A DNA stretch of 47,813 bases from a virus: the IMG/VR virus record IMGVR_UViG_3300031696_000011, one strand, 5' to 3'. Position numbers and translations under genes: made by a program. The notes under the pieces are model-generated. The model was not told the DNA's origin. It worked only from the letters and a program-made list of their open reading frames with translations, and did no database searches. Shown one piece after another: positions 955 to 47,031 of the stretch. Numbering within the stretch: the stretch's first letter is position 1; each line of letters opens with the position of its first letter.

Positions 955-956
955 CT

Positions 957-6930: not shown

Positions 6931-6934
6931 TATC

Positions 6935-7153: not shown

Positions 7154-7154
7154 G

Positions 7155-28201: not shown

Positions 28202-28217
28202 AGCACATACCATGCCA
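28202..28217 (-). promoter_or_regulatory. Sigma-54 type -24/-12 promoter candidate (TGGCATGGTATGTGCT) upstream of the capsid gene
   Basis: The minus strand reads TTGGCATGGTATGTGCTT, matching the plus-strand element at 44186-44203 at 16 of 18 positions. It is intergenic, directly after a terminator. Confidence 0.65.
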
Positions 28218-31745: not shown

Positions 31746-33356
31746 TTAGTTTCGTGTTGCGCCCATGTAACCGTAGACTGGTGCAGATTTTCGCGACTCT
31801 CCGCGCGCGTCTACGCCAGAGAAAGAATATTTGCTTTTATCGTATTCCGCAATAATATCTTTAGTGGTTCTGCGACGAAGCAGACGTGAATTTTTAACTA
31901 GGTGTTCGTTTGAATAGAGCGGGTATTCCTTATCAGCAAGAGCAAGAACTGTGCCATCAGCACGGTCAGGAGATCCGTGACCTTTCGCACGTGCAACACG
32001 TTTTGACTCAAGCACAATTTTTCCGTGAACCGCGCCTTGCATATAGTATCGTGTCGCAAGTTGCCGCTTGAGTGCGTCGTCGTCGAACAACACAAGGTCT
32101 AGGTTCTTGAGGAATATTGCAAAGTTAAACCACATCTCTGCGCCGCGATTACCGTATGTCGAATTGTCAATCGCCCGCGCTTGGTTCAATACTCGGTTAA
32201 CTTGAAACCCGTCCTTCCACAACTGATCTATCATAGACTTGCCCACGCCGCCGTCGTCAGCGTTGATATTTTCTGGCGGAATCTTATACCTATTTATCAA
32301 ACCCTTCACATGATCCACCGCATCGGTCGTGTCGTCATACCTAAAGCAAGGCATCGCAATCTGTTTGTTGCCATCAAATATACTGAACACATTTTCGTCA
32401 CCTCCCGCCGCAAGATCAAGCCCACCGTATCGTATGCCTGTCGGTATCACAACCGGAGGTTTTCGATACGCGCGCATGACCTCTTCAAATGTCATCACTA
32501 GCATCTCGTCTATGCTACAAAATTCGGCTAGGTATGCAGACCTAAACCACGCGGAATTTTCACCGAATCGTTCTCGCGCTTCGTCTACTTCGTCCTGTGA
32601 TATGTGCGGACAGTCACGATACGTGACTTTGAACCGATGCCAACGCTCTGACTCGAAACAACCATAGAAATGCCCGGATGGGGAACCTGGTGAAGACACA
32701 TCCAACCGCCGAGTGAGATTATTACACCGGGCGAGAGCTTCGAAAATGGGCTCCGTGACAGTTTTTGCTTCGTCAACAAAGATTGCAAATTCGCCATCGG
32801 GTCGGAGAGTGTGATAACCTTCAGCCAAGCCCGCGTCGTCGGTAGCAAAGAGTTGGATCTTAGATTTGGTTGGGATAAATGTGAGACTGCGGTAGTTGAT
32901 CTTCCAGAGGATTTCGCCATGGAGCTCATTGATAAATCTGCACAGCCGTGAAACTGCGTAGAAGGTTTGTCTGTCAAGTTGCGTGCCTGACGCGGAAGTA
33001 ATCACACAATTCGCTTCCACGTGCGCCATCGCAAGCCACACTGCACACGGTGCAATTAAAAACTGCGATTTTCCCGAACCATTGTTCGCGCACGTCGCAA
33101 TACGCAACACTTTATCCGGCAGCTTGCCATGTGCAAACAACGTCATGACTTGAATCTGCCATGTGTGCACTTTTACGTCGTGATCGCGGATGTATGGGTC
33201 GTAGATGTGCAACAACATCAACGGATCTTTGATCTTGAACCCATTTGCGCCAGCCCAACCCTTCGCATCGGTAATCGACGCTTTAGGCAAGCGCGATTCC
33301 TGGTCGACAGTGGCGTTTTTGATCTGTGCTTCTACTGTTTGTCGAAAAGGCGCCAT
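31746..33356 (-). CDS. terL: Terminase large subunit
   Basis: Walker A-like CANNGSGKSQF. Walker B FAIFVDEA. C-terminal RNase H-like nuclease Asp motifs GGLDLAAGGDENV, ADDGGVG and SPDRADG. Confidence 0.85.
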   Translation of the reverse strand: MAPFRQTVEAQIKNATVDQESRLPKASITDAKGWAGANGFKIKDPLMLLHIYDPYIRDHDVKVHTWQIQVMTLFAHGKLPDKVLRIATCANNGSGKSQFLIAPCAVWLAMAHVEANCVITSASGTQLDRQTFYAVSRLCRFINELHGEILWKINYRSLTFIPTKSKIQLFATDDAGLAEGYHTLRPDGEFAIFVDEAKTVTEPIFEALARCNNLTRRLDVSSPGSPSGHFYGCFESERWHRFKVTYRDCPHISQDEVDEARERFGENSAWFRSAYLAEFCSIDEMLVMTFEEVMRAYRKPPVVIPTGIRYGGLDLAAGGDENVFSIFDGNKQIAMPCFRYDDTTDAVDHVKGLINRYKIPPENINADDGGVGKSMIDQLWKDGFQVNRVLNQARAIDNSTYGNRGAEMWFNFAIFLKNLDLVLFDDDALKRQLATRYYMQGAVHGKIVLESKRVARAKGHGSPDRADGTVLALADKEYPLYSNEHLVKNSRLLRRRTTKDIIAEYDKSKYSFSGVDARGESRKSAPVYGYMGATRN

Positions 33357-34505: not shown

Positions 34506-34723
34506 ATTGTTACGCCAGTAAACTGTTCCACCAACATTCTTTCGCTCTCCCTCGCTTCACCTTTGATGTCTGCGTCGTGCGCCGCAGGCCTACGGCTCGC
34601 ACATTCGCCCTCTTCTCCTTTCCACCTCCACTGCAACATCTTATTCATCGGCGCCGTCGTCGCACTTCTAATCGTTGCACTCCCAAACCCTACTTCTTTT
34701 CCTCTATGCTTGTGTGTATTCAT
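34502..34723 (-). CDS. Hypothetical protein, 73 aa, first ORF of the late operon
   Basis: ATGA overlap with the downstream gene supports translation. Its ATG lies 14 nt downstream of the C of the -12 GC of the promoter-like element. Confidence 0.4.
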   Translation of the reverse strand: MNTHKHRGKEVGFGSATIRSATTAPMNKMLQWRWKGEEGECASRRPAAHDADIKGEARESERMLVEQFTGVTI

Positions 34724-34735
34724 TCTCTATCTTAT

Positions 34736-34751
34736 AGCAATTCCCATGCCA
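34736..34751 (-). promoter_or_regulatory. Sigma-54 type -24/-12 promoter candidate (TGGCATGGGAATTGCT) at the head of the late operon
   Basis: The minus strand reads TGGCATG-GGAA-TTGCT with correct GG-N10-GC spacing. It sits at the upstream edge of the ~26-kb minus-strand gene array. Confidence 0.65.
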
Positions 34752-35151
34752 TGCTTCCGTGCGTCGTTTCGTGTACCACGTTTTCACAATCAAATATGTC
34801 AAGTCGATTCGTAATTTTGGTCATTTTGTAAGATATACACTGTTCGGATGCCGAACTCAGATCGGGCTTTTTATTTCCGCGGCGTAGGATTAGATCGCCT
34901 AATGGTTAGCATAAGGAAAACTAATCATAAGTGAATTACTTATATATGTTAAGCGCGCGGGAAGTTAATACATACGCCAAGCGGGGACGCCGTGAATCCT
35001 TAACAACTTTGGTTAGGAATTGAATCGCCAGTGTGAAAACCCTAGAAAATCGCCGGAGGATCAGAGAGCACGACGAGAGGGCAAACATGAAACGCATATG
35101 TCTTTTCAGAATATCCGGTTTGGTCTGGGGAATGGGCGGTTACTCTTTTCC

Positions 35152-35182
35152 GTGGAATGTGAAGAGAACCTTTCCATTCCAC
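35152..35182 (+). repeat. Hairpin element R1 containing the 18-nt repeat gtgaagagaacctttcca
   Basis: 8-bp arms gtggaatg (35152-35159) / cattccac (35175-35182). The 18-mer at 35159-35176 recurs exactly at 35306-35323. Confidence 0.8.
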
Positions 35183-35305
35183 CCCCCCGCTCTCGAATGG
35201 GCAAATGGGCAATTCCACATTAAAGAGGATTTAATAAAAAAAACATATATACCAAATACTCTCTTTTGTGGTCTACCAAAGTTGCTAACAGTCGACGGAG
35301 AAGTA

Positions 35306-35334
35306 GTGAAGAGAACCTTTCCACATTCCACATT
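35306..35334 (+). repeat. Second copy (R2) of the 18-nt repeat, followed by tandem ccacatt-ccacatt
   Basis: Exact 18-nt match to 35159-35176, with flanking ttccac similarity. Confidence 0.8.
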
Positions 35335-35409
35335 CTCTCCCTTGTCCCTTGTCCGGTTCATGGTTCATACGGTTCCACGCTTTGCTTTGATTCACGCCAG
35401 AGGATGAAG

Positions 35410-35503
35410 GAATGAAGGAGCGGGAGAGTGAAGGAGCGCACGACGCAAGGGAATGGACAAGGGAAGGAGCGCGGAGAATGGGAGTGAATGAAGGAGCGCG
35501 GAG
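35410..35503 (+). repeat. Direct repeats: GAAGGAGCG x4 (35414, 35430, 35463, 35490); 14-mer gaaggagcgcggag x2; 13-mer gaatgaaggagcg x2
   Basis: Counted directly in the sequence. A fifth degenerate copy, aaaggagca, is at 35521. Confidence 0.85.
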
Positions 35504-35612
35504 GTAATAGGTAAAGGGGAAAAGGAGCATGGGAAAAGAATCAGAAGAAAAAGCGAATAGGGGTTGACGGGAAAAGGGAAAGAGTCCATTCTCTCCGTGT
35601 CGCCAATTGGTG

Positions 35613-35637
35613 ACCCGGATTTATCCGGTTGTTTTTT
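35613..35637 (+). terminator. Weak intrinsic terminator candidate
   Basis: 5-bp GC-rich stem ccgga / tccgg (35615-35619 and 35624-35628) with loop ttta, then ttgtttttt. Confidence 0.35.
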
Positions 35638-35861
35638 GACAGGTTCGCAGTTGAGACGGTTTCCATGAAACCAGATTGACTAGAACAAATTGAATAGGTG
35701 AAAGGAAAACCTTTCACGCCGGTGGAGTATCGGCACAAGTCCTAAGCTTGCGAATGAGTTCATTGCCTTCGAAAATTCAGGGTTACAAGCCAAAGTAGAG
35801 TTGTGTCTAACGTTCAAGATCGGCGGTGAAATGGAATGGCCGGAAACTTAGAGAAATTGGG

Positions 35862-35890
35862 TTTACATAGGAGAATCTCTGGATTCTAAT
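35862..35890 (+). promoter_or_regulatory. Sigma-70 type early promoter candidate (TTTACA-N17-TCTAAT)
   Basis: -35 TTTACA at 35862-35867, a 17-nt spacer, and -10 TCTAAT at 35885-35890, directly upstream of the first plus-strand gene. Confidence 0.5.
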
Positions 35891-35938
35891 ATGTGGATTC
35901 GCCCGGTAATAATGCCACGAATTCACATTTTAAAACCT

Positions 35939-36697
35939 ATGTCAAACACACAAACATTGGAAATTCCAACCAAACGCAATGTCAAGTCTGCCGATATTGC
36001 AACGGGAAAAGGTATCACTGGCGCCGACGCTAAGAACCAAAGCTCTGTGAAATATTGGGACGAGGGTGGAGCATTCAACACGATCGCAGTTGCAAGACTC
36101 GTCCGTGAAATTGCTACCAAGTCTGCAAAGCGTGGATACAATATCAATGTGACCAGTCTCGCTGCTGCCGCTGCAAAACGGATCAAAGCGACTGTTGGCA
36201 AAGATATGTTGACTCGGGAAGAGTTCTACGCTGTGACGGATGCTGCTAACGTGTTACTTTTCAATCTCATCAGTGATATTGAAAACGACACCGACGGTGG
36301 ATTCGTCAACGAGGACGGTTCACGCTGCGGATACGAGCGCGAGTCGTTCTCTGCCGAGAAGATCAACGTCAACCATAAATTGGAGAAGGTGCATCTCACC
36401 AAGACTGCAACGTGGCGCAAGTTGCTCGACCGTGTGACGGAGATTGACAAGCTGGAAGAGGCTATTGCGAACAAAGTCGCGAGCCTCCGCAAGCTGCGTG
36501 AACGTCAGAACGATTCGTTCGATGCCGACAAGATCGACGAAATGGGATTGCAAATCCTGTCCGGCGAGGAATGGTTGGAGCGAAGTGATTCGCTACTCGC
36601 CAAAGACGGTTGGAAGCCTGTGCAAGACGACGCACACTATGTGAACCCATCTTCCCGGAACTACTGGGAAGAATTCGGCAACACCATTGCCGAGTGA
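35939..36697 (+). CDS. Early hypothetical protein, ~252 aa
   Basis: The ORF is open from 35891, but that ATG lies inside the promoter candidate. In-frame ATGs at 35912 and 35939 are more plausible starts. A strong terminator follows. Confidence 0.55.
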   Translation: MSNTQTLEIPTKRNVKSADIATGKGITGADAKNQSSVKYWDEGGAFNTIAVARLVREIATKSAKRGYNINVTSLAAAAAKRIKATVGKDMLTREEFYAVTDAANVLLFNLISDIENDTDGGFVNEDGSRCGYERESFSAEKINVNHKLEKVHLTKTATWRKLLDRVTEIDKLEEAIANKVASLRKLRERQNDSFDADKIDEMGLQILSGEEWLERSDSLLAKDGWKPVQDDAHYVNPSSRNYWEEFGNTIAE

Positions 36698-36703
36698 AGC
36701 AAA

Positions 36704-36740
36704 GCGGGAGAGGACTTCAAACTCTCCCGCACTTTTCGTT
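36704..36740 (+). terminator. Intrinsic terminator
   Basis: 9-bp stem gcgggagag (36704-36712) / ctctcccgc (36722-36730), followed by acttttcgtt. Confidence 0.7.
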
Positions 36741-37003
36741 CCTTCAAATCTGCGTTGCATTGCATTGCAGCATAGATTTGAGCGAATCATATTCGTTCTA
36801 CTGCGGACCATTGCACACACTGTGCATAGCCAGCCGCAACGCTAGCTAGTAGGTCACAAGAGTTCTTGTGCAATCACTGTATTGCATACCCTCTTCGTCT
36901 ACAATAGCGAGATACGCCCGGCAGAACTAGACTGAAAACTACGGGATAGACGACAGAACACAAGAACTGTGTATTGTGCTCGTGATACTACGAAAGGAAT
37001 ATC

Positions 37004-37270
37004 ATGAAAAAACTTATATTGCAGGCTGAACAGTTGCGTCAAGAATGCAACATGGCTATCTCCAATATCAGAGCACGTCTATCCCATGTCCCTTGGGAAC
37101 AAGGGTTGCGGATGGACTCAGAACTCACTGAATGTCATTTGCACAGATGCGCGAATATGTTGCGGAACATTAGCGACGACTGTGCAAACAACAGAGTCAG
37201 TGAGGTGTCAGCGCAAGGCGACATCGCAGGTGTTGAAAAGCACATGACGGTGATTGCGAAATACTTGTAA
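37004..37270 (+). CDS. Early hypothetical protein, 88 aa
   Basis: Preceded by aaaggaatatc-ATG, one of the few clear SD-like sites in the window. Confidence 0.6.
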   Translation: MKKLILQAEQLRQECNMAISNIRARLSHVPWEQGLRMDSELTECHLHRCANMLRNISDDCANNRVSEVSAQGDIAGVEKHMTVIAKYL

Positions 37271-37592
37271 CCCTATCTCACGGGCACACTACACGGTTCT
37301 TGGATGTGAAAGATCTGTCAGCGGCAATCTATGGGACCGCACAGTCAAGAACGAGCGGATAAATACAGTGTTGGGAATCGCGATTGCGCCGCAGGCTTGT
37401 GATACTACGCAAGCCACGGAGATGCAAAACCTACCCGACACAACTTCTGGGACGACTACTCTAGTATTGGCTGAAGGGAGACGAAGCATTAGAAACGGCA
37501 GAGAGTGGAGAGAAATCCATGTGACAAACTCTGTTTATGACCGTTCCGCGTATAGGTTAGCGGCTATTGGCAAGGTAAATGCTCCCGTGTAG
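37254..37592 (+). CDS. Doubtful ORF, 112 aa (an internal start at 37422 is possible)
   Basis: It is the only ORF filling 37.27-37.6 kb. Overlaps the upstream stop. No motifs. Its 3' end contains a promoter-like element. Confidence 0.3.
   Translation: MRNTCNPISRAHYTVLGCERSVSGNLWDRTVKNERINTVLGIAIAPQACDTTQATEMQNLPDTTSGTTTLVLAEGRRSIRNGREWREIHVTNSVYDRSAYRLAAIGKVNAPV
37568..37583 (+). promoter_or_regulatory. Weaker sigma-54 type -24/-12 match (TGGCAAGGTAAATGCT)
   Basis: Correct GG/GC spacing. Shares TGGCA-GGTA--TGCT with the elements at 28202 and 44187. A terminator follows about 50 nt downstream. Confidence 0.35.
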
Positions 37593-37631
37593 GACAATGG
37601 TTCTACAAGATAAACCCGAATTACACGATTG

Positions 37632-37675
37632 GGAGCGCACAGTTTACAGACACTCTGTGCGCTCCTTCTCTTTTT
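37632..37675 (+). terminator. Intrinsic terminator
   Basis: Perfect 11-bp stem ggagcgcacag (37632-37642) / ctgtgcgctcc (37655-37665), followed by ttctcttttt. Confidence 0.8.
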
Positions 37676-37719
37676 CATATCTCAATTCAGACTAGGGATA
37701 GCATAGCTTGAATTCAGAT

Positions 37720-37878
37720 ATGAAAGAATACAAACATCACCGTTTATGTGGGCATGGTGGAATCAAATGCCCTTGCTGTTCGCCGATGAACACAGTCAAG
37801 AAATCACGTGTTATGATTAACCGCCGATACCGGCGCACGTGCAAACAAGAACTGCATACCTATGACGAAAGCGAATAA
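37720..37878 (+). CDS. Small basic Cys-rich protein, 52 aa (below the ORF-track cutoff)
   Basis: Translated by hand: MKEYKHHRLCGHGGIKCPCCSPMNTVKKSRVMINRRYRRTCKQELHTYDESE. Has a CxH...CPCC zinc-knuckle-like pattern and a basic tail. Confidence 0.45.
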   Translation: MKEYKHHRLCGHGGIKCPCCSPMNTVKKSRVMINRRYRRTCKQELHTYDESE

Positions 37879-38053
37879 GATCAGAGATGGCCCTGTCATG
37901 GGCTAATATTCTCAATCACCGAAGTTGGCCCGGTAATAATAGGCCAACACATACTTCAATTCAGGAGGAAGTGTAGACCATCGGCGAAATGTTTGATTAT
38001 GACCCAAACTACTGACGGTAACGCTAGGTGGAGCCTTCCTTCTGAATTGAATT

Positions 38054-38149
38054 ATGAACAAAACTGATAGAATCCTTATCGTCCTGTGCATCATGCTTGC
38101 GCTACTTGTGGTCATGGCAAATGTTGCAGGCTACATCACTCACCGATGA
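38054..38149 (+). CDS. Possible 31-aa single-pass membrane peptide
   Basis: Translated by hand: MNKTDRILIVLCIMLALLVVMANVAGYITHR. Its TGA overlaps the ATG at 38146 (ATGA). Confidence 0.3.
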   Translation: MNKTDRILIVLCIMLALLVVMANVAGYITHR

Positions 38150-38502
38150 TTGCTTGCCCTGAATGCGCCGCAGGCTTGGTCTTGCCGAGTTACGTGGACG
38201 GAATTGTCAAGTGTCCAGAGTGTGACATGCTGTTTCAATACACGAAACCTGTGCCGTCACAACCACCCACACCCACATACGATGGGATAGGTAGACGTGT
38301 GAATCGTAGGATGCGGCAAGTAGACATGGACATCGCATGTGAAAAACTTTACGACAAGCATGTTGCAAGGCTAGGATACGTCCCTGAGCGTATGGAACTT
38401 TACTTGTTGTTGAAGTCGATGGAGAATGCAGTGCGCGGACGTATGATTGCGCGAATGTGGGACGAGGAATTGCGGAGGACATTTCACGAGGTATTACAAT
38501 GA
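38146..38502 (+). CDS. Zinc-ribbon protein, ~118 aa (the ORF is open from 38086)
   Basis: CPEC...CPEC pairs (MIACPECAAGLVLPSYVDGIVKCPECDMLFQY). The start is either 38146 (ATGA-coupled) or 38086. Confidence 0.55.
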   Translation: MIACPECAAGLVLPSYVDGIVKCPECDMLFQYTKPVPSQPPTPTYDGIGRRVNRRMRQVDMDIACEKLYDKHVARLGYVPERMELYLLLKSMENAVRGRMIARMWDEELRRTFHEVLQ

Positions 38503-38705
38503 ACGCGAAAGAGTTTGAAGAAGCAACAGGTGATGAGCCACGTCAGGATGATTTGGAGCGTGCAAACTGCATTCTTGCAGGTGCCAGTGGGCATCAAGAT
38601 TGTGGCATATGTGAACCGCACGGTTTGCCTATTAGCAAATGCGCGCTCTGCTTTATCCTTCCTGCTAAGGATGTCAAAAGAAAACCAAACAAACAAACGG
38701 AATAA
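38499..38705 (+). CDS. Small Cys-rich protein, 68 aa
   Basis: The ATG at 38499 overlaps the upstream TGA (ATGA). Contains HQDCGICEPH...CALC. Confidence 0.5.
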   Translation: MNAKEFEEATGDEPRQDDLERANCILAGASGHQDCGICEPHGLPISKCALCFILPAKDVKRKPNKQTE

Positions 38706-38707
38706 AC

Positions 38708-38989
38708 ATGAACGAAATACTAAATGACTTGAAAGATCTCTATCATGCAGCGATAGACAATCGTAACCTCTTTGCTGCGCGTGCTGCTGCTGCGCCATGT
38801 GAAGACATGGTGTTGCACAACAACCTTATGTCTGTGTCGGAATCGTATGCTGCAATCGCGCTGCGTATCGGGGACATCATTAGCAAGTATGACGAGGTTG
38901 ATCCTGAAGTTGCACCTGTCACATCCACGCGGGAACATTGCCATGACAAGTTCAACAACATTGGCGAAGCAATTGATGATGCATCATAA
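38708..38989 (+). CDS. Hypothetical protein, 93 aa
   Basis: Tightly packed ORF. The antisense ORFs look like shadows. Confidence 0.5.
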   Translation: MNEILNDLKDLYHAAIDNRNLFAARAAAAPCEDMVLHNNLMSVSESYAAIALRIGDIISKYDEVDPEVAPVTSTREHCHDKFNNIGEAIDDAS

Positions 38990-38994
38990 ACGTG

Positions 38995-39010
38995 TGGCAT
39001 GGTTCTTGCT
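38995..39010 (+). promoter_or_regulatory. Sigma-54 type -24/-12 promoter candidate (TGGCATGGTTCTTGCT)
   Basis: TGGCATG-GTTC-TTGCT sits in the 78-nt gap between the genes ending at 38989 and starting at 39068. It matches the consensus TGGCACG-N4-TTGCW at all but one position. Confidence 0.65.
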
Positions 39011-39067
39011 ACACATTCATTGCCTAGTCCAACCCTTTCCACCCTTTAGTGTATCACACATATCGTT

Positions 39068-39433
39068 ATGACAATCAAGCACACACAAACACGTGCGCCA
39101 GTTAGGGTTGCTAACCACTTTCGCGTTGCTAAGTATCGCGAGACACTGTGGATAGTGTATACACTGACTGATCTCATTGCCAAGATCAAAGCGTCGATGC
39201 TAGCATCAGGTAAACACAGGCATATTGTGGTCGTGACACACTTCGATCATGTCAGTGTGGACAGTGATGGTGTGACGTTTCACAGGTATGAAAGTATCAG
39301 CACAGGACATTCGTATATGAATAACGAAATCATTATACCATCGTGCGAACTTACGGCAGGTGCATTAGAGAGGCTTGAACATATGCAAGAACACTCTGCA
39401 CTATGCAGTCAAGTTGATCGACAACAATCATGA
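39068..39433 (+). CDS. Hypothetical protein, 121 aa
   Basis: First ORF downstream of the promoter-like element. ATGA overlap with the next gene. Confidence 0.55.
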   Translation: MTIKHTQTRAPVRVANHFRVAKYRETLWIVYTLTDLIAKIKASMLASGKHRHIVVVTHFDHVSVDSDGVTFHRYESISTGHSYMNNEIIIPSCELTAGALERLEHMQEHSALCSQVDRQQS

Positions 39434-39678
39434 ACACAAGAAATAAACCTTGCCCCTGTGGAAGCGGGAGCAAACACAAGAAGTGTTGCTTAGCTAAGCA
39501 GCAAGAACAACGGAAGCTTGATAGCGAACCCGAAGGGTTGCGGCGTAATCGTAAACACAAGAAGTCACTTGTCCCTGCGGCAATTACACTAGCTGCAACA
39601 GATCAACTGCTAGACTGTGGCCCGAAGTCTACGCTTCCGAACTTCAACATCAACGCATTCAACACTGACAATGAGTGA
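39430..39678 (+). CDS. SEC-C motif protein, 82 aa
   Basis: N-terminal KPCPCGSGSKHKKCC is the SecA C-terminal metal-binding (SEC-C) motif. Confidence 0.7.
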   Translation: MNTRNKPCPCGSGSKHKKCCLAKQQEQRKLDSEPEGLRRNRKHKKSLVPAAITLAATDQLLDCGPKSTLPNFNINAFNTDNE

Positions 39679-40327
39679 CCATATTCCATCGCACAACCCA
39701 ACACCGTTGCCTACCGTGCTCAAGGTGCCGGGATACAGTGTTGCTGTGTCTCGTTTGATCGACTGGATCATTGCACCGGGCGAAATTGTGGGTGCAGGTG
39801 GGTTGCTTGAACCGCGCGAGATTAACATCGTGCTTGCAGACTTCATGCTACGGCATTCCAAGTTCCACGAATACGGAATGATCCACGCTGTTGAACAAAT
39901 GGGCGAGCACACACGCTACTGGCTGTGGCGTAAACGTGACTGGAGCGAGCGAGCACATGTGCATCGTATCGACAAGGCAAAGAACGACATTGAACGAACA
40001 CGGAGTATGCGTAGCACCAAGACACGCGACACAATCTTTAGTCGGTTGTGTAAAATGTTCCCGAAGTTTCTGACTGAGCGTAAGCTGGGTATGGAAATGG
40101 TTCGGATGTGGATCAGTGAACACGACGACAACGACGAGTTCAAGTATTGGCTGAACAAGATGGGATACTTTGAACTGTCGGAAACTGATAGAGCTGCGGT
40201 TGAAGAGGCAGCGGATGAAGCAGACGAGATTGAAGCAGCAGATCCGTTCGATCCGAATTGGATCAGCGAGATAGACGCAGGACTACTTGCACGAATGAAG
40301 AAGGAATACAGCAAACCATTATCATGA
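39671..40327 (+). CDS. Hypothetical protein, 218 aa (acidic C-terminus)
   Basis: The ATG at 39671 gives an 8-nt overlap with the upstream gene. The ORF track's longer form would overlap by 62 nt. Confidence 0.55.
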   Translation: MSDHIPSHNPTPLPTVLKVPGYSVAVSRLIDWIIAPGEIVGAGGLLEPREINIVLADFMLRHSKFHEYGMIHAVEQMGEHTRYWLWRKRDWSERAHVHRIDKAKNDIERTRSMRSTKTRDTIFSRLCKMFPKFLTERKLGMEMVRMWISEHDDNDEFKYWLNKMGYFELSETDRAAVEEAADEADEIEAADPFDPNWISEIDAGLLARMKKEYSKPLS

Positions 40328-42468
40328 CACCTGAACAGATCAAAGCATCGCTATTCAAGCTGATGCCTAAAGCAGCACCGGGCAATGCGCTTGCACGTGC
40401 TGAAGAACAAGCGAAAGTTGACGCGGAGAAACGACAACGTGCACGTGCTGTGCTAGAAGCAGAGGTTGCTAAGTTCGTTGGCGAATCAGCTGCGTCTAAC
40501 ATGGGTGAGAAACGACTTCGCGAGATGCGAGACATTGGACGCAAGGCTGCGGAAGATGCGACGTTCCATGCTGCACTTGCCGATGCGAAAGATAACCCTG
40601 TTGATACTGTTGACGAACAGATCGCCGCGCTGACTAGCATTCACGAGAACAAAACACCTGCTCGTGGACGTATGACACCTGCTACTCACGACAAGATGTC
40701 TGCTGTTATCAAGTTCGAGCCTGAAGTATTGGACATGTATGCCATGCGATACGGCAGCGACGAGAAGAAATCGTTCCGCATTGATTTGGAAAACCGAATG
40801 CTTCCATGCTTGAAACAGTTCAATCGTGGCCCGAAGTTACTGCACTTTCAAACACATCCGTTACCAAGGGCATTGCGTTTGCTTGGAGACGAGCATCAAT
40901 CAGCATTGTTGATCGCGCCGACAGGTGCGGGCAAGACATACTTCTTTGCGACGTTGATTAAATATCTGCGACTATACTTTCCCGAAGACTATCCGAAAGA
41001 TAGACAGATCATGGTTGTCACGAAGCCAACGGTGGTTAAGCAGACACAGCGTGTGTTGTTCGGTGAGTTTGGGATTACGAATGTGATGGTGACGTCGTAT
41101 CCAGAGATGACACGGTCGCAGATTAGTGGGATATATGTATCATGGGAGACACGGGTTACGAGAGATGGTGAGGTGAAAGAGGTTCCGATATGGAATCCAG
41201 TGTTCAGGCCGTCACTAATCATATGGGATGAGTGTCAGTGTCTCAAGAATTTCGGCAGCACACAGAGCATAATTGCAGCAGCGTATGGGCAACGATTGAA
41301 TCCGACAGGACATGTGGCAAGTGCAGCGGATTGGGAAGGTGACCCGATTAGTTTGAGTGTGTCTGCCACGCCATACTCACGTCCGCAGAATGCGAAGGTT
41401 GTGATCTCGTTGCTAGGCCCAGTGATTAACAATCGCAAGGTAACACTTAACAACTTCAACGAGTGGGCACGGGATATATGTGCAAGACACAACACAGACT
41501 TAGATAAGTGGAGTCCGGTTGCGATGAAGAGTATTCAGGATTCGATTGAACACCTTACGATTAGGTTCGACAGGATTCAGTATCGGAAGCGGACACTTAT
41601 CAAACAGAAGGTGATTGAGTTCGAGACGGTGGAAGAGAAGAGCGAATACGGTGAAGCGTTTACTGAATACATGAAGAAGCGCGAGGAGTTGGAGGCGAAA
41701 GAACTGTCGTCAGGAACTGAGATACTAGTGGCGATGATGATGTTTCGCAAGAAGGCAGAGATCATTCGTGCACCGCGGCTTGCACAGATGGGACTGGATA
41801 GTATGGACTTGAGCAACAACGTAATCATTGCGTGTGCATTTCGTGAGACACTTGAAACAATCAACGAACTGTTGCTAGACGTTGGTGTAGGTAGTGACAA
41901 GATTGCACAGATCAAAGGAGGACAAACAGCAGATGCCAGACAAAAACAAATCGACGGATTCCAACGGGACGAGCGTCATATTATGTTGCTTATGTTTAGT
42001 GCAGGTGGAGCGGGACTTTCGTTACATCAATCAAACACTGGAGATTTCCCGAACAAACGTCCACGAGTTGTGTATCTGCCACCAGTGTGGAACGCAGAGG
42101 AACTCGTTCAAGTCCTTGGTCGAGCACATCGCGTTACTTCTGATAGCACAACTCGACAATACATAGTCTGGTATAAGGACACGATCGAGAGCGAGGTTGC
42201 TGAGAAAGTTAAGAAGAAGTGTAGCGCACTTAAAGAAGTTGTCGGGAAGAAAGAAGACTGGAGTATTGCATTCGCAGGCAAGGAGATTGGTGAAGGGATA
42301 GAAGATCAGATGGAGATAAATTTCAAAGGTGTGCGAGACAAGAGCGACGAAGAAGTGAATGACGACGACGACGAGAATGAAGTGGCATCAGACTTCGAGG
42401 TCATGGATTCTGAGGAAGAACTCAAGCGAGCCGAGGTTGCGGATGCTATACTTGAACATACATTATGA
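40324..42468 (+). CDS. SNF2/SF2-family helicase, ~714 aa
   Basis: Motif I LLIAPTGAGKTYF. Motif II IIWDECQCLKN. Motif V MFSAGGAGLSLH. Motif VI QVLGRAHRVTS. ATGA-coupled start at 40324. Confidence 0.85.
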   Translation: MTPEQIKASLFKLMPKAAPGNALARAEEQAKVDAEKRQRARAVLEAEVAKFVGESAASNMGEKRLREMRDIGRKAAEDATFHAALADAKDNPVDTVDEQIAALTSIHENKTPARGRMTPATHDKMSAVIKFEPEVLDMYAMRYGSDEKKSFRIDLENRMLPCLKQFNRGPKLLHFQTHPLPRALRLLGDEHQSALLIAPTGAGKTYFFATLIKYLRLYFPEDYPKDRQIMVVTKPTVVKQTQRVLFGEFGITNVMVTSYPEMTRSQISGIYVSWETRVTRDGEVKEVPIWNPVFRPSLIIWDECQCLKNFGSTQSIIAAAYGQRLNPTGHVASAADWEGDPISLSVSATPYSRPQNAKVVISLLGPVINNRKVTLNNFNEWARDICARHNTDLDKWSPVAMKSIQDSIEHLTIRFDRIQYRKRTLIKQKVIEFETVEEKSEYGEAFTEYMKKREELEAKELSSGTEILVAMMMFRKKAEIIRAPRLAQMGLDSMDLSNNVIIACAFRETLETINELLLDVGVGSDKIAQIKGGQTADARQKQIDGFQRDERHIMLLMFSAGGAGLSLHQSNTGDFPNKRPRVVYLPPVWNAEELVQVLGRAHRVTSDSTTRQYIVWYKDTIESEVAEKVKKKCSALKEVVGKKEDWSIAFAGKEIGEGIEDQMEINFKGVRDKSDEEVNDDDDENEVASDFEVMDSEEELKRAEVADAILEHTL

Positions 42469-42779
42469 ACAAAGATCTAGCACTAGAAGATGCGATTGAA
42501 TTGATCGACGCGATCATGAAGGGTGAGATAAACCCGGAGGATGAGTGTGAGAAATGGCTGAGGGCATATGCACCTAAGCGATTACGAGATGCTACGAGCC
42601 ACGACAAGGACAAGATAGCTGAACACAATGTGAGAATCATACACATTATGCAGAAGATAAATTGGCTTGAAGGACAGTGGGACAGGAACGACAACAACAA
42701 CAAATGTAACAAGTTTGTTCAAGACAAGCTGACGAAACTACACACAGAACTAACCAAACTACAAACAAAAGATGAGTGA
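42465..42779 (+). CDS. Hypothetical protein, 104 aa
   Basis: ATGA overlap with the helicase gene. Confidence 0.5.
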   Translation: MNKDLALEDAIELIDAIMKGEINPEDECEKWLRAYAPKRLRDATSHDKDKIAEHNVRIIHIMQKINWLEGQWDRNDNNNKCNKFVQDKLTKLHTELTKLQTKDE

Positions 42780-43200
42780 TACAGACCTGACCAAAGAAGA
42801 GATTGCGGACGGCGACGACTACATTGCCGAGACAATCGCGCAACAAGCGCGAGACAAAGCTGCGGCAAAGAAACCACCAGCACGACAGCTTGAATTGTAT
42901 GTGATCTTCGCGTGGAAGACACCGCAGTATAGGCTGCACGAATGGTGTCAGACTGGTGAGACGGCACCTAACGACTCTCAGTGTGTGCATTGTGATCGCA
43001 CGATGGGTGACGCTGATGATCGTGTATGTGATTCAGGCATGGCTGGTGCGCTTGGTGGATGGAACGACTACAAAGGTGGTAGTGGAAACTTCGGCATTGC
43101 GATGTTGAAGTGGCAGACATTGAAAGCGCAAGGACATAACAACTGTCAGGTGTTGAACATACACAGCGGCAAGCTAGAGTTGGAGGTGTATGATGCTTAG
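42772..43200 (+). CDS. Hypothetical protein, 142 aa
   Basis: 8-nt overlap with the upstream gene. Contains CVHCD...C Cys residues. Confidence 0.5.
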   Translation: MSDTDLTKEEIADGDDYIAETIAQQARDKAAAKKPPARQLELYVIFAWKTPQYRLHEWCQTGETAPNDSQCVHCDRTMGDADDRVCDSGMAGALGGWNDYKGGSGNFGIAMLKWQTLKAQGHNNCQVLNIHSGKLELEVYDA

Positions 43201-44176
43201 CACAGAGGAGTTGGCGCGGATAAATGAGGCGACCAAACGGCAAGCGGCAACTGTTGAAGCGAACAAGGCGCGGTTGCTAAATCAACCACCGAACCCTAGC
43301 GGAGTGGATCACGGTGCGATCAAACGTAAGCTAGAAAAGATGGGACTGTTTGAGTTGGCGAATGATCTCAAGGTCTGTCGTCCAGCAAGTCTTGCTTCGC
43401 TTGATGAGTTTATCACAGATGACGCGGCGATGTTGCGGCTCAAGAAACAGGTTGAGTATCTGTGCGAGATGGATGACCCAGTGTTGATTCACGGTGAGAG
43501 TGGGACAGGCAAGGAGTTGATAGCTCGTGCGTTGCATGGACGAAAGTCAGCGCCGTTTATCGCAGTCAACACGACAGCACTACCACTTCATCTGATGGAG
43601 AGTGAGTTATTTGGTCATGCGAAAGGATCATTCACCGGTGCAGATGCGAACAAGATCGGGATACTTGAAGGCGCAGGTAACGGGACTGTGTTTCTGGATG
43701 AGATAGGTGACATGGAGTTGACGCTGCAATCGAAGTTGTTGCGTGTGTTGCAAGAGAAAGTAATCAGACCTGTCGGCACGAATGCTGAGCGTGAGATACA
43801 TTGTCGAGTAGTGGCAGCCACGCATCAGGTGATACGACGTGAGGAAACAGTTCATGGAACTAAGTCAGTCACGTGGAAGAAAGGTTTCCGTCAGGATTTA
43901 TACTGGCGTCTTGCTACACACACGCTTCACATCTCACCGCTTCGTGATCGTCCAGATGATATCCGTGAGATACTAGATGCGGTCATAGATCCTGACCAAC
44001 GATTGCCTGAATCATTCCGTGACGAGATGGTAACGATGCAACTGGAAGGCAACTTCCGTGAACTCAATGCGTTGTGTCAGCGTAAGTTTCTTGCAATGAA
44101 AGTGGACGATACGCAGGGTGAACTTTATATACCCGGTGTTGTGACACACGCAGCCTACGTCCACACAAAAGAGTAA
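43190..44176 (+). CDS. Sigma-54 interaction-domain AAA+ ATPase (minimal bacterial enhancer-binding protein; no sensory domain or HTH seen)
   Basis: VLIHGESGTGKELIARALH (Walker A), FGHAKGSFTGA (GAFTGA loop, nt 43625-43642), GTVFLDEIGDM (Walker B), LQSKLLRVLQE, FRQDLYWRL, ISPLRDRPDDI and GNFRELNA. About 95 aa precede the module and about 30 aa follow it. Confidence 0.9.
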   Translation: MMLSTEELARINEATKRQAATVEANKARLLNQPPNPSGVDHGAIKRKLEKMGLFELANDLKVCRPASLASLDEFITDDAAMLRLKKQVEYLCEMDDPVLIHGESGTGKELIARALHGRKSAPFIAVNTTALPLHLMESELFGHAKGSFTGADANKIGILEGAGNGTVFLDEIGDMELTLQSKLLRVLQEKVIRPVGTNAEREIHCRVVAATHQVIRREETVHGTKSVTWKKGFRQDLYWRLATHTLHISPLRDRPDDIREILDAVIDPDQRLPESFRDEMVTMQLEGNFRELNALCQRKFLAMKVDDTQGELYIPGVVTHAAYVHTKE

Positions 44177-44186
44177 CGCAACCTGT

Positions 44187-44202
44187 TGGCACGGTATGTG
44201 CT
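44187..44202 (+). promoter_or_regulatory. Sigma-54 type -24/-12 promoter candidate (TGGCACGGTATGTGCT)
   Basis: TTGGCACG-GTAT-GTGCTG begins 11 nt after the activator gene's stop and lies 28 nt upstream of the ATG at 44230. Confidence 0.65.
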
Positions 44203-44229
44203 GTATAAGAACTGTCCACCTCCCCGAGT

Positions 44230-44463
44230 ATGAACAAGAAAATATTTAGAAATTCTGTCGGCTGGATTGTTCTGGTATGGAATCGTGCTGACTGGGAGTT
44301 CATCGCAGTCCATGAGAACGGTTGCTGTAAGGACATACCGTGGACAGCAGTGGAAGAGAAAGATAAAAGTCTTGCGATTGATACGATCATCGGCAAGCTG
44401 ACAAGACGTGAGTTCAAATACCAACAAGAACTCCAACAAGATTTGCCCAACGCTACTTCGTAG
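44230..44463 (+). CDS. Hypothetical protein, 77 aa
   Basis: First ORF after the promoter-like element. Confidence 0.5.
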   Translation: MNKKIFRNSVGWIVLVWNRADWEFIAVHENGCCKDIPWTAVEEKDKSLAIDTIIGKLTRREFKYQQELQQDLPNATS

Positions 44464-44523
44464 CACGGCATTAACAAACGAGCATAATGCTCATCGACAA
44501 GAACAGTTAGAAAAAGCAAAGTT

Positions 44524-45171
44524 ATGAGTAACGAAGCCGCAGACCAAAACGTTGAGACCGAAGTTGCCGATGCCCCGGCACAAGCCATCGACCTGAGCAA
44601 CGACAGCGCTGCTGAAGCGAACAAAGCCGTGGTCATCATCGACCCTGAGACTGGTAAGGACAACACTTACCTGACTGACGACGACGGCGACAACTACTTG
44701 GAGTTCGAAGGACTCCGTGTGTATGTCACCACATTCGGCGGCGCATTGAAGGGTGTGCTGTATCACTACAAACAGTTCACCTCGCTTGACAAGGCGATTG
44801 AAGTGCACGGCGCAGACAAAGTCCTCGCTGCGTTGAACGACAACCTGAATGCCGGAACCCGTAACAAGGTGAAGTCGTCCAAGATTCCGAAGTTCGACGA
44901 CAGCAAGGCGCAGGAGTCCGCGATTCGCACGATGCTTACGGAACATCCTGTTCAGTTCACCATCAACGAAGCGATTCGTTACGAGCCGGGTGAGCGCGAT
45001 CAGACGTCTGGTCAGATCCTCGCCGTGCTGAAGGCAGCGCAGAAGGATGGTGTCGGAACGACCAAGATCGCCGCGATCATGCAGCGTTTGATGGCCGTGA
45101 TGGCGAAGGAGAACTTGCGTCGTGGTATCGACGACGGACAGGTTCACGTTGCCGACGACGACGAGCAGTAA
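44524..45171 (+). CDS. Acidic hypothetical protein, 215 aa
   Basis: Clean ORF with acidic termini (ends DDGQVHVADDDEQ). A strong terminator follows. The long antisense ORFs are compositional shadows. Confidence 0.65.
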   Translation: MSNEAADQNVETEVADAPAQAIDLSNDSAAEANKAVVIIDPETGKDNTYLTDDDGDNYLEFEGLRVYVTTFGGALKGVLYHYKQFTSLDKAIEVHGADKVLAALNDNLNAGTRNKVKSSKIPKFDDSKAQESAIRTMLTEHPVQFTINEAIRYEPGERDQTSGQILAVLKAAQKDGVGTTKIAAIMQRLMAVMAKENLRRGIDDGQVHVADDDEQ

Positions 45172-45183
45172 GAAGTCACATGT

Positions 45184-45214
45184 TGGGGAGGACATCCACT
45201 CCCCAGCATTTTTT
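45184..45214 (+). terminator. Intrinsic terminator
   Basis: 7-bp stem tggggag (45184-45190) / ctcccca (45199-45205), followed by gcatttttt. Confidence 0.75.
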
Positions 45215-45318
45215 AAATCGAACACACTAGCAAGCACAACGCAATGGCGATTTCGTTTATTGGTTTAGCTGGATCGCAGGTCGTGACTAAACACCATGAT
45301 GTTAGTGTGTTCGATTTA
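45214..45318. repeat. 16-bp perfect inverted repeat (taaatcgaacacacta / tagtgtgttcgattta) enclosing 73 nt
   Basis: Arms at 45214-45229 and 45303-45318, extendable to 18 of 19 bp. Located between a terminator and the gene at 45342. Confidence 0.85.
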
Positions 45319-45341
45319 GAAAATGCAAACAGGAAATAGAT

Positions 45342-45995: not shown

Positions 45996-45996
45996 C

Positions 45997-46197
45997 ATGG
46001 ACATGATTAACAAACTGGTTGACACACCTGCAGGTGTAGGGTTGTGCAGGATTATAATTAATGGGCAAGCTATTGTCTATTATCTTGACAAGCCATTCTT
46101 TGCGTATGATGTTGGCGATATCAAACTGTGCGACATGCAAGATGAAATGTTGTATGCACAGATTGAAGCTAAAGCAATCGAGGAACTATCGAAATGA
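45997..46197 (+). CDS. Hypothetical protein, 66 aa
   Basis: Tightly packed. ATGA overlap with the ligase gene. Confidence 0.5.
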   Translation: MDMINKLVDTPAGVGLCRIIINGQAIVYYLDKPFFAYDVGDIKLCDMQDEMLYAQIEAKAIEELSK

Positions 46198-47027: not shown

Positions 47028-47031
47028 GATT

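What the first reader, a model, noticed from the sequence alone, without database searches (positions are those of the whole stretch)
35320..35640. Purine-rich GGA/AAGGAG repeat element with complementary CU-rich flanks: candidate regulatory RNA or R-loop origin
Bases ~35400-35580 are almost pure purine on the plus strand. They contain four exact GAAGGAGCG copies, a duplicated 14-mer (gaaggagcgcggag), a duplicated 13-mer (gaatmaaggagcg written here as gaatgaaggagcg) and about 13 GGA triplets. Only low-complexity shadow ORFs cover the region.

The upstream flank (ctcccttgtcccttgtcc, 35335-35352) and the flank copies of cattctctcc (35330-35339 and 35587-35596) are complementary to the core segments ggacaaggg and ggagaatg/gggagag. 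A short hairpin plus U-tract follows at 35613-35637. This fits a ~300-nt plus-strand structured RNA.

Three hypotheses, all unproven:
- It is a GGA-motif sponge of the CsrB/RsmZ type that titrates a CsrA/RsmA-like host regulator.
- It is an SD-mimic (AAGGAG) or, on the other strand, an anti-SD-like (CUCCUU) RNA. Such an RNA would bias translation toward phage mRNAs, most of which lack obvious SD sequences.
- It is a purine-rich transcript forming a stable R-loop that primes replication, given that no primase gene is recognisable.
Basis: partly seen in the sequence, partly recalled or inferred. Interest (0 to 1): 0.7.

Follow-up and report, generated by a model that had tools for sequence, protein, structure and literature searches.

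The report
Purine-rich repeat tract before phage early promoters
A 170-base, 82-83% purine stretch of short repeats is real and sits just before the likely early-gene promoters of an uncultured marine phage; it most likely acts as a DNA control element, not as the folded regulatory RNA first proposed.

Summary
Bases 35395-35563 are 82% purine, the most extreme stretch in the genome, with four exact GAAGGAGCG copies against 0.3 expected in the whole window.

The window is a complete circular phage genome of about 47.7 kb. The tract lies in a 1.2-1.6 kb gene-free region between the leftward late genes and the rightward early genes.

Two diverged relatives (a TARA Oceans phage and a metagenome-assembled contig) have a purine tract at the same place. 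In all three it ends exactly at a conserved TTGAC, the likely -35 box of the first of three tandem promoter-like sites.

- The plus-strand fold is no better than shuffled sequence.
- The CU-flank complementarity is neither significant nor conserved.
- AAGGAG is absent from the relatives, and GGA follows base composition.
- No Rfam family matches.
- A primase-like gene does exist.
- No promoter was found upstream of the tract.

Best reading (confidence 0.37): a cis-acting DNA element made of an A-rich promoter-proximal segment plus degenerate factor-binding repeats. A transcript-primed (R-loop) origin is not excluded.

Two side findings are more striking: a phage-encoded sigma-54 activator with five sigma-54 promoters, and a structured-RNA candidate at 37275-37685.

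The parts
35395..35563 (+). Polypurine-rich tract (82% A+G), the core of the finding. It ends exactly at the conserved TTGAC.
   Evidence: equivalent tracts in L005 (~2546-2806) and L090 (~865-1347)
35410..35503 (+). Degenerate direct-repeat array: 4 x GAAGGAGCG (35414, 35430, 35463, 35490), 2 x a 14-mer and 2 x a 13-mer. GCG islands recur about every 27-28 nt.
   Evidence: shared degenerate cores GAGCG(C/G)GGA and AATGGGA with the relatives
35525..35563 (+). A-rich promoter-proximal segment. It is the only part of the tract alignable with the TARA relative. UP-element-like position (-36 to -75 relative to the inferred start).
   Evidence: (local alignment z=4.9)
35564..35592 (+). P1, a sigma-70-type promoter-like site: TTGACG, 17 nt, CATTCT. 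It is followed by the conserved CTCCGTGTCG (35593-35602).
   Evidence: the TARA homologue TTGACA-16-TAAATT with TG scores 10/12; TTGAC is also present at the tract end in L008 and L090
35599..35637 (+). Two tandem small hairpins (GTCGCCAATTGGTGAC; CCGGATTTATCCGG) followed by TTGTTTTTT. Either a terminator-like element or a 5' stem-loop of the P1 transcript.
   Evidence: z=-3.5; analogous hairpin(s) plus T-rich run before TTGACA in L005 and L090
35636..35641 (+). Second conserved TTGACA (P2 -35-like box).
35676..35681 (+). Third conserved TTGAC box (P3 -35-like).
   Evidence: L005 TTTCCA-17-TAGAAT nearby
35319..35354 (+). Short tandem duplications TTCCACA x2.4 and TCCCTTG x2.4. TTCCACATTCCAC is identical in the TARA relative. 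The CT-rich part is specific to the window.
35230..35259 (.). Conserved AT-rich block TTTAATAAAAAAAACATATATACCAAATAC. Candidate unwinding or bending element.
   Evidence: conserved in window, L005, L008, L090
35152..35182 (.). Inverted repeat GTGGAATG...CCATTCCAC, the same half-site as the TTCCAC repeats.
34737..34751 (-). Sigma-54-type promoter TGGCATGGGAATTGC of the leftward late operon. It forms the left boundary of the control region.
34506..34736 (-). Late-operon leader. It is purine-rich in the sense (minus) strand and forms a mirror image of the finding.
34800..34875 (.). 76-nt block strongly conserved with the TARA relative. Its hairpin GTTCGG/CCGAAC carries one compensatory change. 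High-identity homology ends at 34875.

Best explanation
The tract is a cis-acting DNA element of the phage's early control region, not a gene and probably not a structured RNA.

**Anatomy**
- It is a polypurine/polypyrimidine stretch built from degenerate direct repeats of roughly 27 nt. In the window the repeat core is GAAGGAGCG. Across relatives the shared cores are GAGCG(C/G)GGA and AATGGGA.
- It runs right up to the -35 box (TTGAC) of the first of three tandem sigma-70-type early promoter-like sites.

**Proposed mechanism (inferred)**
- The conserved A-rich last ~40 nt act like an UP element, or upstream contact or bending region, for host RNA polymerase at P1.
- The more distal, fast-evolving repeats are multiple binding sites for a DNA-binding factor. 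That factor is co-inherited with the hypervariable early gene module, or is a host factor. It sets early-promoter strength or shuts it off. It may also mark the nearby AT-rich block as the replication start zone.

**Shown versus inferred**
- Shown: composition, repeats, position, non-coding status, and conservation of the architecture.
- Inferred: promoter identity, protein binding and regulatory role.
For: **Position and conservation**
- The tract lies in a gene-free region between the late genes (minus strand, up to 34505/34723) and the early genes (plus strand, from 35891). The source annotations leave about 1.58 kb without a called gene.
- In three phages the purine tract stops exactly at a conserved TTGAC.
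- In the TARA relative that site is TTGACA-16-TAAATT with an upstream TG. At 10/12 it is the best promoter-like site of its region.
- Downstream, CTCC(G/T)TGTCG is conserved in the window and the TARA relative. Two more TTGAC boxes are conserved in all three phages.
- Only the promoter-proximal ~45 nt align between window and TARA (z=4.9). The TARA and L090 tracts align with each other (z=5.0).

**Evidence for selective constraint**
- High-identity homology with TARA stops at 34875.
- The adjacent first early protein is only 36% identical, against 96% for TerL and 93% for the sigma-54 activator.
- Retention of a purine tract with shared motifs across that divergence argues for constraint.
- GCG islands recur with the same ~28-nt period in window and TARA, above the 95% null.

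**Evidence against the RNA alternatives**
- There is no upstream promoter.
- There is no significant plus-strand structure.
- There is no Rfam hit.
- There is no coding frame.
Against: - No binding protein is identified. The early proteins have no informative Pfam or PHROG hits, and the AlphaFold model of the adjacent 268-aa protein was unusable (pLDDT 41).
- Repeat spacing (16, 33, 27 nt; period about 27-28) is not a multiple of the helical repeat, unlike classic iterons. A-tracts show no 10.5-nt phasing.
- The extreme strand asymmetry has the polarity expected for a sense strand. It mirrors the purine-rich, certainly transcribed leader of the late operon. This fits an RNA-level or R-loop role at least as well.
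- P1 in the window itself is weak (-10 is CATTCT), and L090 has no convincing -10.
- Hairpins plus a T-run just after the tract could be the terminator of a transcript that crosses it.
Confidence: 0.37

Rival explanations
1. Transcript-primed (R-loop) replication origin. Under this model the tract is transcribed rightward. The purine-rich RNA stays hybridised to the pyrimidine-rich template and primes the rightward leading strand. The mirror-image purine-rich late leader, made from the sigma-54 promoter, does the same leftward. The conserved AT-rich block between them melts under the negative supercoiling produced by divergent transcription.
For: - With published nearest-neighbour values (recalled from memory), plus-sense RNA over 35413-35562 has the most favourable RNA:DNA-minus-DNA:DNA energy of any 150-nt window in the genome (-39.8 kcal/mol, against a mean of -2.2 +/- 7.2).
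- The late leader (34544-34693) ranks second for minus-sense RNA.
- The mirror-symmetric purine loading is present in all three phages.
- The AT-rich block is conserved in four phages.
- The cumulative GC-skew minimum is near 35000.
- Hairpin(s) plus a T-run follow the tract.
- There is a precedent. In lactococcal c2-type phages the origin is a non-coding, promoter-containing stretch between the divergent early and late modules. It supports plasmid replication without phage proteins (PMC7150918, which cites Schiemann et al. 2004 on the essential early transcript).
Against: - No sigma-70- or sigma-54-type promoter is detectable upstream of the tract in window, L005 or L090.
- The best promoter-like site (P1) lies after the tract, not before it.
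- The GC-skew switch is confounded by the switch in gene orientation.
- A>T together with G>C is the signature of a sense strand, not of a leading strand.
- There is no replication data.
Confidence: 0.22
2. Iteron-type origin. The repeats are binding sites for a replication initiator that opens the nearby AT-rich block, as in lambda ori, P1 oriR or P4 ori/crr.
For: - Several distinct direct-repeat families lie in a long non-coding region next to a conserved AT-rich block.
- The location is at the strand switch.
- The replication genes (DUF3987 primase-helicase, PolA, SNF2 helicase) are phage-encoded.
Against: - No initiator gene is recognisable.
- The DUF3987 protein is 95% identical in the TARA phage although the repeat units differ.
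- There is no DnaA-box cluster.
- Spacing is irregular and not helically phased.
- The tract is about 140 nt away from the AT block and abuts a promoter instead.
Confidence: 0.15
3. Functionless simple sequence. Under this model the tract is a variable-length spacer between two conserved elements (TTCCAC repeats and TTGAC), filled by replication slippage of purine-rich seeds.
For: - The interval 35319-35510 is a chain of short tandem duplications: TTCCACA, TCCCTTG, GGTTCAT, GCTTTG, ATGAAGGA and GAAGGAGCG.
- The spacer length varies from about 110 nt (L008) to about 230 (window), 300 (TARA) and about 390-400 (L090, measured from its own CGCCACTAGTCA repeats).
- The unit sequence is not conserved between window and TARA.
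Against: - Purine richness, GCG periodicity and shared degenerate motifs persist between lineages whose neighbouring early protein is only 36% identical. Neutral sequence would be randomised at that distance.
- The tract always has the same strand polarity and the same sharp end at TTGAC.
Confidence: 0.12
4. Sponge RNA. A GGA-rich or AAGGAG-rich transcript titrates CsrA/RsmA, or titrates 30S subunits through the anti-Shine-Dalgarno sequence.
For: - The window tract has 18 GGA, 7 AGGA and 5 AAGGAG.
- Most phage genes lack an obvious SD.
Against: - GGA is explained by base composition. It is under-represented in the closest relative (z=-1.25).
- AAGGAG is absent from the L005, L090 and L008 tracts.
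- A sequence this poor in pyrimidines cannot present GGA in hairpin loops, and the predicted 3' half is unstructured.
- No Rfam CsrB/Rsm family hit appears even at E<=10.
- No upstream promoter is found.
- The host, and hence whether it has CsrA, is unknown.
Confidence: 0.04
5. Enhancer (upstream activating sequence). Under this model the repeats are bound by the phage's own sigma-54 activator to drive the late promoter at 34751.
For: - The phage encodes a sigma-54 activator and has a sigma-54 late promoter 650-750 bp away.
- In relative L009 a GTGGAAT/GGTGGAG repeat array sits roughly 40-220 nt upstream of a plus-strand sigma-54 promoter.
Against: - The activator ends right after its AAA+ domain and has no C-terminal helix-turn-helix, as do its 20 aligned relatives.
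- The repeat motif is not found upstream of the other four sigma-54 promoters.
- The activator is 93% identical in the TARA phage, whose repeat units differ.
- The distance is unusually long.
Confidence: 0.04

Closest known systems
UP elements and upstream activating regions of strong sigma-70 promoters (e.g. rrnB P1 with its UP element and upstream Fis sites; from general knowledge)
   Same: - An A-rich segment lies directly upstream of a TTGAC -35 box.
- Further repeated sites extend to about -200.
- The promoter-proximal part is conserved.
   Different: - The tract is A+G-rich rather than A+T-rich and is extremely strand-asymmetric.
- No binding factor is known.
- The promoter itself is only inferred from consensus and conservation.
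Non-coding origin of lactococcal c2-type (Ceduovirus) phages, located between the divergent early and late modules and dependent on an early transcript (PMC7150918; Schiemann et al. 2004 as cited there)
   Same: - It is a non-coding region between divergently oriented early and late gene blocks.
- It lies next to tandem early promoters.
- It has no ORF and no ribosome-binding site.
   Different: - There the origin lies between PE1 and PE2 and is transcribed from PE1.
- Here the purine tract lies upstream of the first promoter-like site, and no transcript or replication activity is shown.
- There is no sequence similarity.
Iteron arrays of phage and plasmid origins (lambda ori, P1 oriR, P4 ori/crr; from general knowledge)
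   Same: - Multiple short direct repeats lie in a non-coding region near an AT-rich block.
- The repeat sequence differs between relatives.
   Different: - Spacing is irregular and not helically phased.
- There is no adjacent initiator gene.
- The candidate helicase-primase does not co-vary with the repeats.
CsrB/RsmY/RsmZ-type protein-sponge RNAs
   Same: Many GGA/AGGA motifs are packed into a few hundred nucleotides.
   Different: - The motifs are not in hairpin loops.
- They are not enriched beyond composition.
- They are not conserved in the relatives.
- There is no covariance-model match and no identified promoter.
R-loop-forming purine-rich primers (ColE1 RNA II, retroviral polypurine tract, mitochondrial CSB; from general knowledge)
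   Same: A purine-rich RNA on a pyrimidine-rich template would form an unusually stable hybrid. The tract is the genome's thermodynamic extreme for this.
   Different: There is no evidence here for transcription, for RNase H processing or for priming.

Membership tests
CsrB/RsmZ-type sponge RNA | Multiple GGA motifs presented in loops of short hairpins | tested here: not met
   The tract is 82-83% purine and cannot form local stems. In the MFE and centroid folds its 3' half is unpaired, and the fold is no better than shuffles.
CsrB/RsmZ-type sponge RNA | GGA enrichment beyond base composition, conserved in relatives | tested here: not met
   z = +1.6 (window), -1.25 (L005), +2.05 (L090).
CsrB/RsmZ-type sponge RNA | Match to a curated covariance model | tested here: not met
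   There is no Rfam hit at gathering threshold. At E<=10 only chance hits to unrelated families appear.
CsrB/RsmZ-type sponge RNA | Host encodes CsrA/RsmA | not testable with these tools
   The host is unknown. The genome-collection scan gave only generic bacterial activators.
SD-mimic / anti-SD RNA | SD-like AAGGAG (or its complement) conserved as the repeated unit | tested here: not met
   AAGGAG occurs 5 times in the window and 0 times in the L005, L090 and L008 tracts.
Iteron-type replication origin | Three or more direct repeats with regular, helically phased spacing | tested here: not met
   Four exact 9-mers are spaced 16, 33 and 27 nt apart. The dominant period is about 27.5 nt, with no 10.5-nt signal.
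Iteron-type replication origin | Adjacent AT-rich unwinding element | tested here: inconclusive
   A conserved AT-rich block is present at 35230-35259 in four phages. It lies about 140 nt from the repeats, and unwinding is not testable.
Iteron-type replication origin | Cognate initiator protein that co-varies with the repeats | tested here: not met
   No Rep-like gene was found. The DUF3987 primase-helicase is 95% identical in the TARA phage, whose repeats differ.
Iteron-type replication origin | DnaA boxes | tested here: not met
   TTWTCCACA with up to 1 mismatch gives 27 sites genome-wide against 23 expected. Only one lies in the region.
Transcript-primed (R-loop) origin | Promoter upstream of the hybrid-forming segment | tested here: not met
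   No sigma-70-like site and no sigma-54-like site (PWM from 67 sites) is found upstream of the tract on the plus strand in three phages. These are consensus scans only.
Transcript-primed (R-loop) origin | Purine/G-rich non-template strand giving a stable RNA:DNA hybrid | tested here: met
   The tract is the most favourable 150-nt window in the genome, about 5 sd from the mean.
Transcript-primed (R-loop) origin | Replication initiates there | not testable with these tools
   This needs coverage-skew, 2D-gel or DRIP data.
Upstream (UP-like) element of a sigma-70 promoter | Lies immediately upstream of a -35/-10 pair with correct spacing | tested here: met
   The window has TTGACG-17-CATTCT. L005 has TTGACA-16-TAAATT with TG, 10/12. 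TTGAC is conserved in four phages. Matches are to consensus only, and the host's promoter type is unknown.
Upstream (UP-like) element of a sigma-70 promoter | A/T-rich sequence at about -40 to -60 | tested here: inconclusive
   35540-35560 is A-rich (AAAAA at 35549-35553) but T-poor. The segment is conserved with L005.
Sigma-54 enhancer (UAS) | Activator has a DNA-binding domain, and its sites recur upstream of its promoters | tested here: not met
   There is no HTH after the AAA+ domain. The repeat motif is not upstream of the other sigma-54 promoters.
Intrinsic terminator | GC-rich hairpin followed directly by a U-run | tested here: met
   35615-35628 is a stem-loop followed by TTGTTTTTT, with a tandem hairpin fold z of -3.5. 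This is a pattern match only: about 2 such sites are expected by chance in the scanned region.

The most novel reading that the evidence does not exclude
The tract and the mirror-image purine-rich late leader are the two arms of a bidirectional, transcript-primed origin. Divergent transcription (sigma-54 leftward, an unrecognised start rightward) melts the conserved AT-rich block. It also lays down unusually stable purine-RNA:pyrimidine-DNA hybrids that prime both leading strands. This would be an R-loop origin design not described for phages that depend on host sigma-54.
Probability: 0.1. Interest if true: 0.7.

Novelty: new variant of a known kind. Interest (0 to 1): 0.33.

Why it matters
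- The tract marks the control hub of a previously uncharacterised lineage of marine phages, with several contigs from TARA Oceans data.
- These phages appear to run their middle and late genes through host sigma-54 and a phage-made activator.
- Knowing whether the tract tunes the early promoters or starts replication would define how this lineage switches on.
- By itself, a repeat-rich non-coding stretch next to early promoters is an ordinary kind of phage feature. Only its extreme purine asymmetry is unusual.

Tried and rejected
**Searches for relatives**
- A near-identity DNA search of the region against 50,697 phage records found nothing.
- Searches of IMG/VR with the flanking proteins and TerL found nothing.
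- The GTDB genome scan with TerL found nothing. The second scan, with P0006, returned only generic bacterial activators and gave no host clue.
- The 268-aa early protein has no homologue beyond itself in 5.8 billion proteins.

**Motif and structure tests that failed**
- A DnaA-box cluster was not found.
- The TTCCACATTCCAC motif as a general sigma-54 enhancer was rejected, because it occurs only in the control region.
- An inverted-duplication origin for the late leader and the tract was rejected (z 1.2-1.6).
- A-tract helical phasing, which would indicate curved DNA, was not found.
- Coding potential on either strand was rejected.
- A plus-strand sigma-54 promoter near 35729-35751 was rejected. 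By eye on the sequence the GG-GC spacing is 2 or 6 nt too long in the window and 1 nt too long in L005. The PWM scan also gave no positive-scoring plus-strand site there.
- The fifth GAAGGAGCG copy (37660, minus strand) is simply the 3' arm of a terminator stem.

**Other**
- The AlphaFold model of the 268-aa protein was too poor to search with (pLDDT 41.5).
- Literature searches for phage-encoded sigma-54 activators and for polypurine phage origins returned nothing relevant.

Full report
**Context**

- The window has identical 127-bp ends, so it is a complete circular assembly of about 47.7 kb.
- Genes form three blocks:
  - Plus strand 1-8477 carries replication genes: exonuclease, a Sak4-like annealing protein, family-A DNA polymerase, and a DUF3987/primase-type protein at 7155-8477.
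  - Minus strand 8692-34723 carries structural and packaging genes, including the large terminase at 31746-33356.
  - Plus strand 35891-47813 carries early genes, an SNF2-type helicase, a sigma-54 activator at 43190-44176, and a ligase.
- The finding therefore lies in the divergent control region between the late and early blocks. Independent annotations of identical contigs leave about 1.58 kb here with no called gene.
- No tRNA and no Rfam family was found anywhere in the window.

**The observation**

- It is correct. See the observation check for the numbers.
- The tract is the most purine-rich stretch of the genome and carries significantly repeated words.
- Two parts of the description do not carry weight:
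  - The GGA count is close to what the composition gives.
  - The flank/core complementarity is matched by 6.7% of shuffled flanks.

**Relatives**

- Nothing similar exists among isolated phages.
- Identical genomes occur in several public assemblies.
- A TARA Oceans phage (L001/L005) is 82-87% identical in DNA over most of the genome. Its TerL is 96% identical, its sigma-54 activator 93%, and its DUF3987 protein 95%.
- High-identity homology stops at window position 34875 and resumes only in islands until about 39700.
- The first early protein is only 36% identical. The early module, including the finding, is therefore a much older divergence than the rest of the genome.
- Three more distant syntenic relatives were recovered through the activator: L008, L009 and L090, with activators 50-56% identical.

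**Comparative anatomy**

Reading rightward, the window, L005, L008 and L090 share the following order:
1. A sigma-54-type promoter pointing left. L009, whose control region is arranged differently, also has one.
2. A conserved AT-rich block. In the window this is TTTAATAAAAAAAACATATATA..., at 35230-35259.
3. Short direct repeats. These are ATTCCAC x2 in window, L005 and L008, and a different 12-mer x2 in L090.
4. A C-poor, repeat-bearing stretch of variable length. It is about 110 nt in L008, 230 in the window, 300 in L005 and about 390-400 in L090.
5. A conserved TTGAC.

Purine content:
- The stretch in item 4 reaches 79-83% purine over 150 nt in the window, L005 and L090. In all three the purine content drops abruptly at TTGAC.
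- No window of at least 78% purine occurs in about 1.26 Mb of 80 more distant activator-bearing viral loci.

Conservation of the repeats:
- The repeat unit differs between phages. The degenerate cores GAGCG(C/G)GGA and AATGGGA recur.
- The L005 and L090 tracts are alignable (z=5.0).
- Window and L005 align only in the last ~45 nt plus TTGAC (z=4.9).
- GCG islands show the same ~28-nt period in window and L005.

**What follows the tract**

- In L005, TTGACA-16-TAAATT with an upstream TG is the best sigma-70-like site of the region, at 10/12.
- The window has TTGACG-17-CATTCT. In both phages this is followed by CTCC(G/T)TGTCG.
- One or two small GC hairpins and a T-rich run then lead into a second TTGACA, and a third TTGAC box lies 40 nt further on.
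- The phage encodes no RNA polymerase. These are therefore the likely host-polymerase early promoters, which places the tract upstream of them.

**Tests of the RNA hypotheses**

- The plus-strand fold of 35320-35640 has z = -0.77.
- The minus-strand fold is better than shuffles (z = -3.3). It rests on the same flank/core pairing, which is specific to the window. The flanks of L005 and L090 are not pyrimidine-rich (0.43 and 0.38, against 0.72), and their longest complements are 6-7 nt.
- AAGGAG is absent from all relatives.
- GGA is not consistently enriched.
- Rfam gives nothing even at E<=10.
- No promoter-like site precedes the tract on the plus strand in three phages. This was checked with the sigma-70 scan and with a sigma-54 matrix built from 67 sites of this phage family.
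- All plus-strand frames are closed. The minus-strand open frames are compositional shadows.

**What keeps an RNA or R-loop role alive**

- The asymmetry has sense-strand polarity.
- The leader of the late operon, which lies downstream of a conserved sigma-54 promoter, is purine-rich in its own sense strand in all three phages.
- Plus-sense RNA over 35413-35562 would form the most favourable RNA:DNA hybrid of the genome. This used nearest-neighbour parameters recalled from memory.
- A hairpin plus U-run follows the tract.
- In lactococcal c2-type phages a non-coding origin sits between the divergent early and late modules, among the first early promoters. It functions without phage proteins (PMC7150918).

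I therefore keep a transcript-primed origin as the main rival.

**Other rejected readings**

- Sigma-54 enhancer:
  - The activator and its relatives end right after the AAA+ domain, with no helix-turn-helix.
  - The motif is not upstream of the other sigma-54 promoters.
- Classic iteron origin:
  - There is no initiator gene.
  - The DUF3987 protein does not co-vary with the repeats.
  - There is no DnaA-box cluster.
  - Spacing is not phased.
- Neutral slippage spacer:
  - The chain of micro-duplications and the variable length fit this reading.
  - Retention of composition, polarity, periodicity and motifs across a divergence that leaves the neighbouring protein at 36% identity argues against it.

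**Verdict**

- The tract is a real, lineage-restricted, non-coding element. Its architecture is conserved while its sequence turns over.
- Most likely it is a DNA-level upstream element of the early promoter cluster, made of an A-rich proximal part plus repeated factor sites. It may be coupled to replication initiation at the adjacent AT-rich block.
- The function is inferred, not shown. Strand-specific transcript and coverage mapping would settle it.

Noticed in passing
window 43190-44176 (+); promoters at 23391-23405 (-), 28203-28217 (-), 34737-34751 (-), 38995-39009 (+), 44187-44201 (+): The phage encodes a short sigma-54 activator. It has an AAA+ domain with a GSFTGA loop, no receiver domain and no DNA-binding domain (PF00158, E=1.6e-53). 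Five TGGCAYG-N4-KTGC sigma-54-type promoters are present against 0.22 expected; the pattern was chosen after seeing the candidates. All five lie between ORFs and point the same way as the genes downstream. At least 146 IMG/VR viral contigs, typically 45-55 kb, carry relatives. These often have a sigma-54 promoter just after the activator gene. No isolated phage carries it, and no paper describing it was found. This looks more noteworthy than the finding itself.
   Followed up: partly
window 37275-37685 (+); L005:4563-4935: This is a candidate structured non-coding RNA of about 400 nt in the early region. It is 76% identical to the TARA relative, while the flanking early genes are unalignable. 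Its indels are not multiples of three, which rules out the 112-aa ORF 37254-37592. It has a long-range helix enclosing a variable insert and 7 pairs kept through changes on both sides. It ends in a strong terminator (about 37641-37684) that itself shows two compensatory changes. No Rfam match was found.
   Followed up: partly
window 34876-39700: The early module is hypervariable relative to the rest of the genome. The first early protein is 36% identical to its TARA counterpart, against 93-96% for TerL, the activator and the DUF3987 protein. This suggests module exchange or strong diversifying selection.
   Followed up: partly
window 34800-34875: A 76-nt block 50-125 nt upstream of the late sigma-54 promoter is almost identical in the TARA relative. 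It contains a hairpin GTTCGG/CCGAAC with one compensatory change and a T-run. L005 has a plus-strand promoter-like site (TTGAAT-17-TAAAAT) in the homologous stretch. It could be a small RNA, a packaging site or a bending site.
   Followed up: no
L009:3518-3751: In a distant relative, an array of GGTGGAAT/GGTGGAGTAC repeats lies roughly 40-220 nt upstream of a plus-strand sigma-54 promoter (TGGCATACTTCTTGC). The repeats share their half-site with the window's TTCCAC repeats. The TTCCAC motif may therefore be an activator-related site even though the activator lacks a recognised DNA-binding domain.
   Followed up: partly
window 1-127 and 47687-47813: An identical 127-bp terminal overlap indicates a circular assembly, that is, a complete genome.
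   Followed up: yes
window, start codons of called genes: Most genes lack a recognisable Shine-Dalgarno sequence and have A-rich upstream regions instead. The terminase is closest to those of Akkermansia phages (33% identity). The host is unknown.
   Followed up: partly
L090:520-700: A second purine-rich array, 5 x AGTAATAC at about 23-28-nt spacing, lies on the other side of the AT-rich block in the MAG-derived relative. L008 has related GGATAATACAT repeats. Each phage of the clade carries several distinct direct-repeat families in this control region.
   Followed up: no
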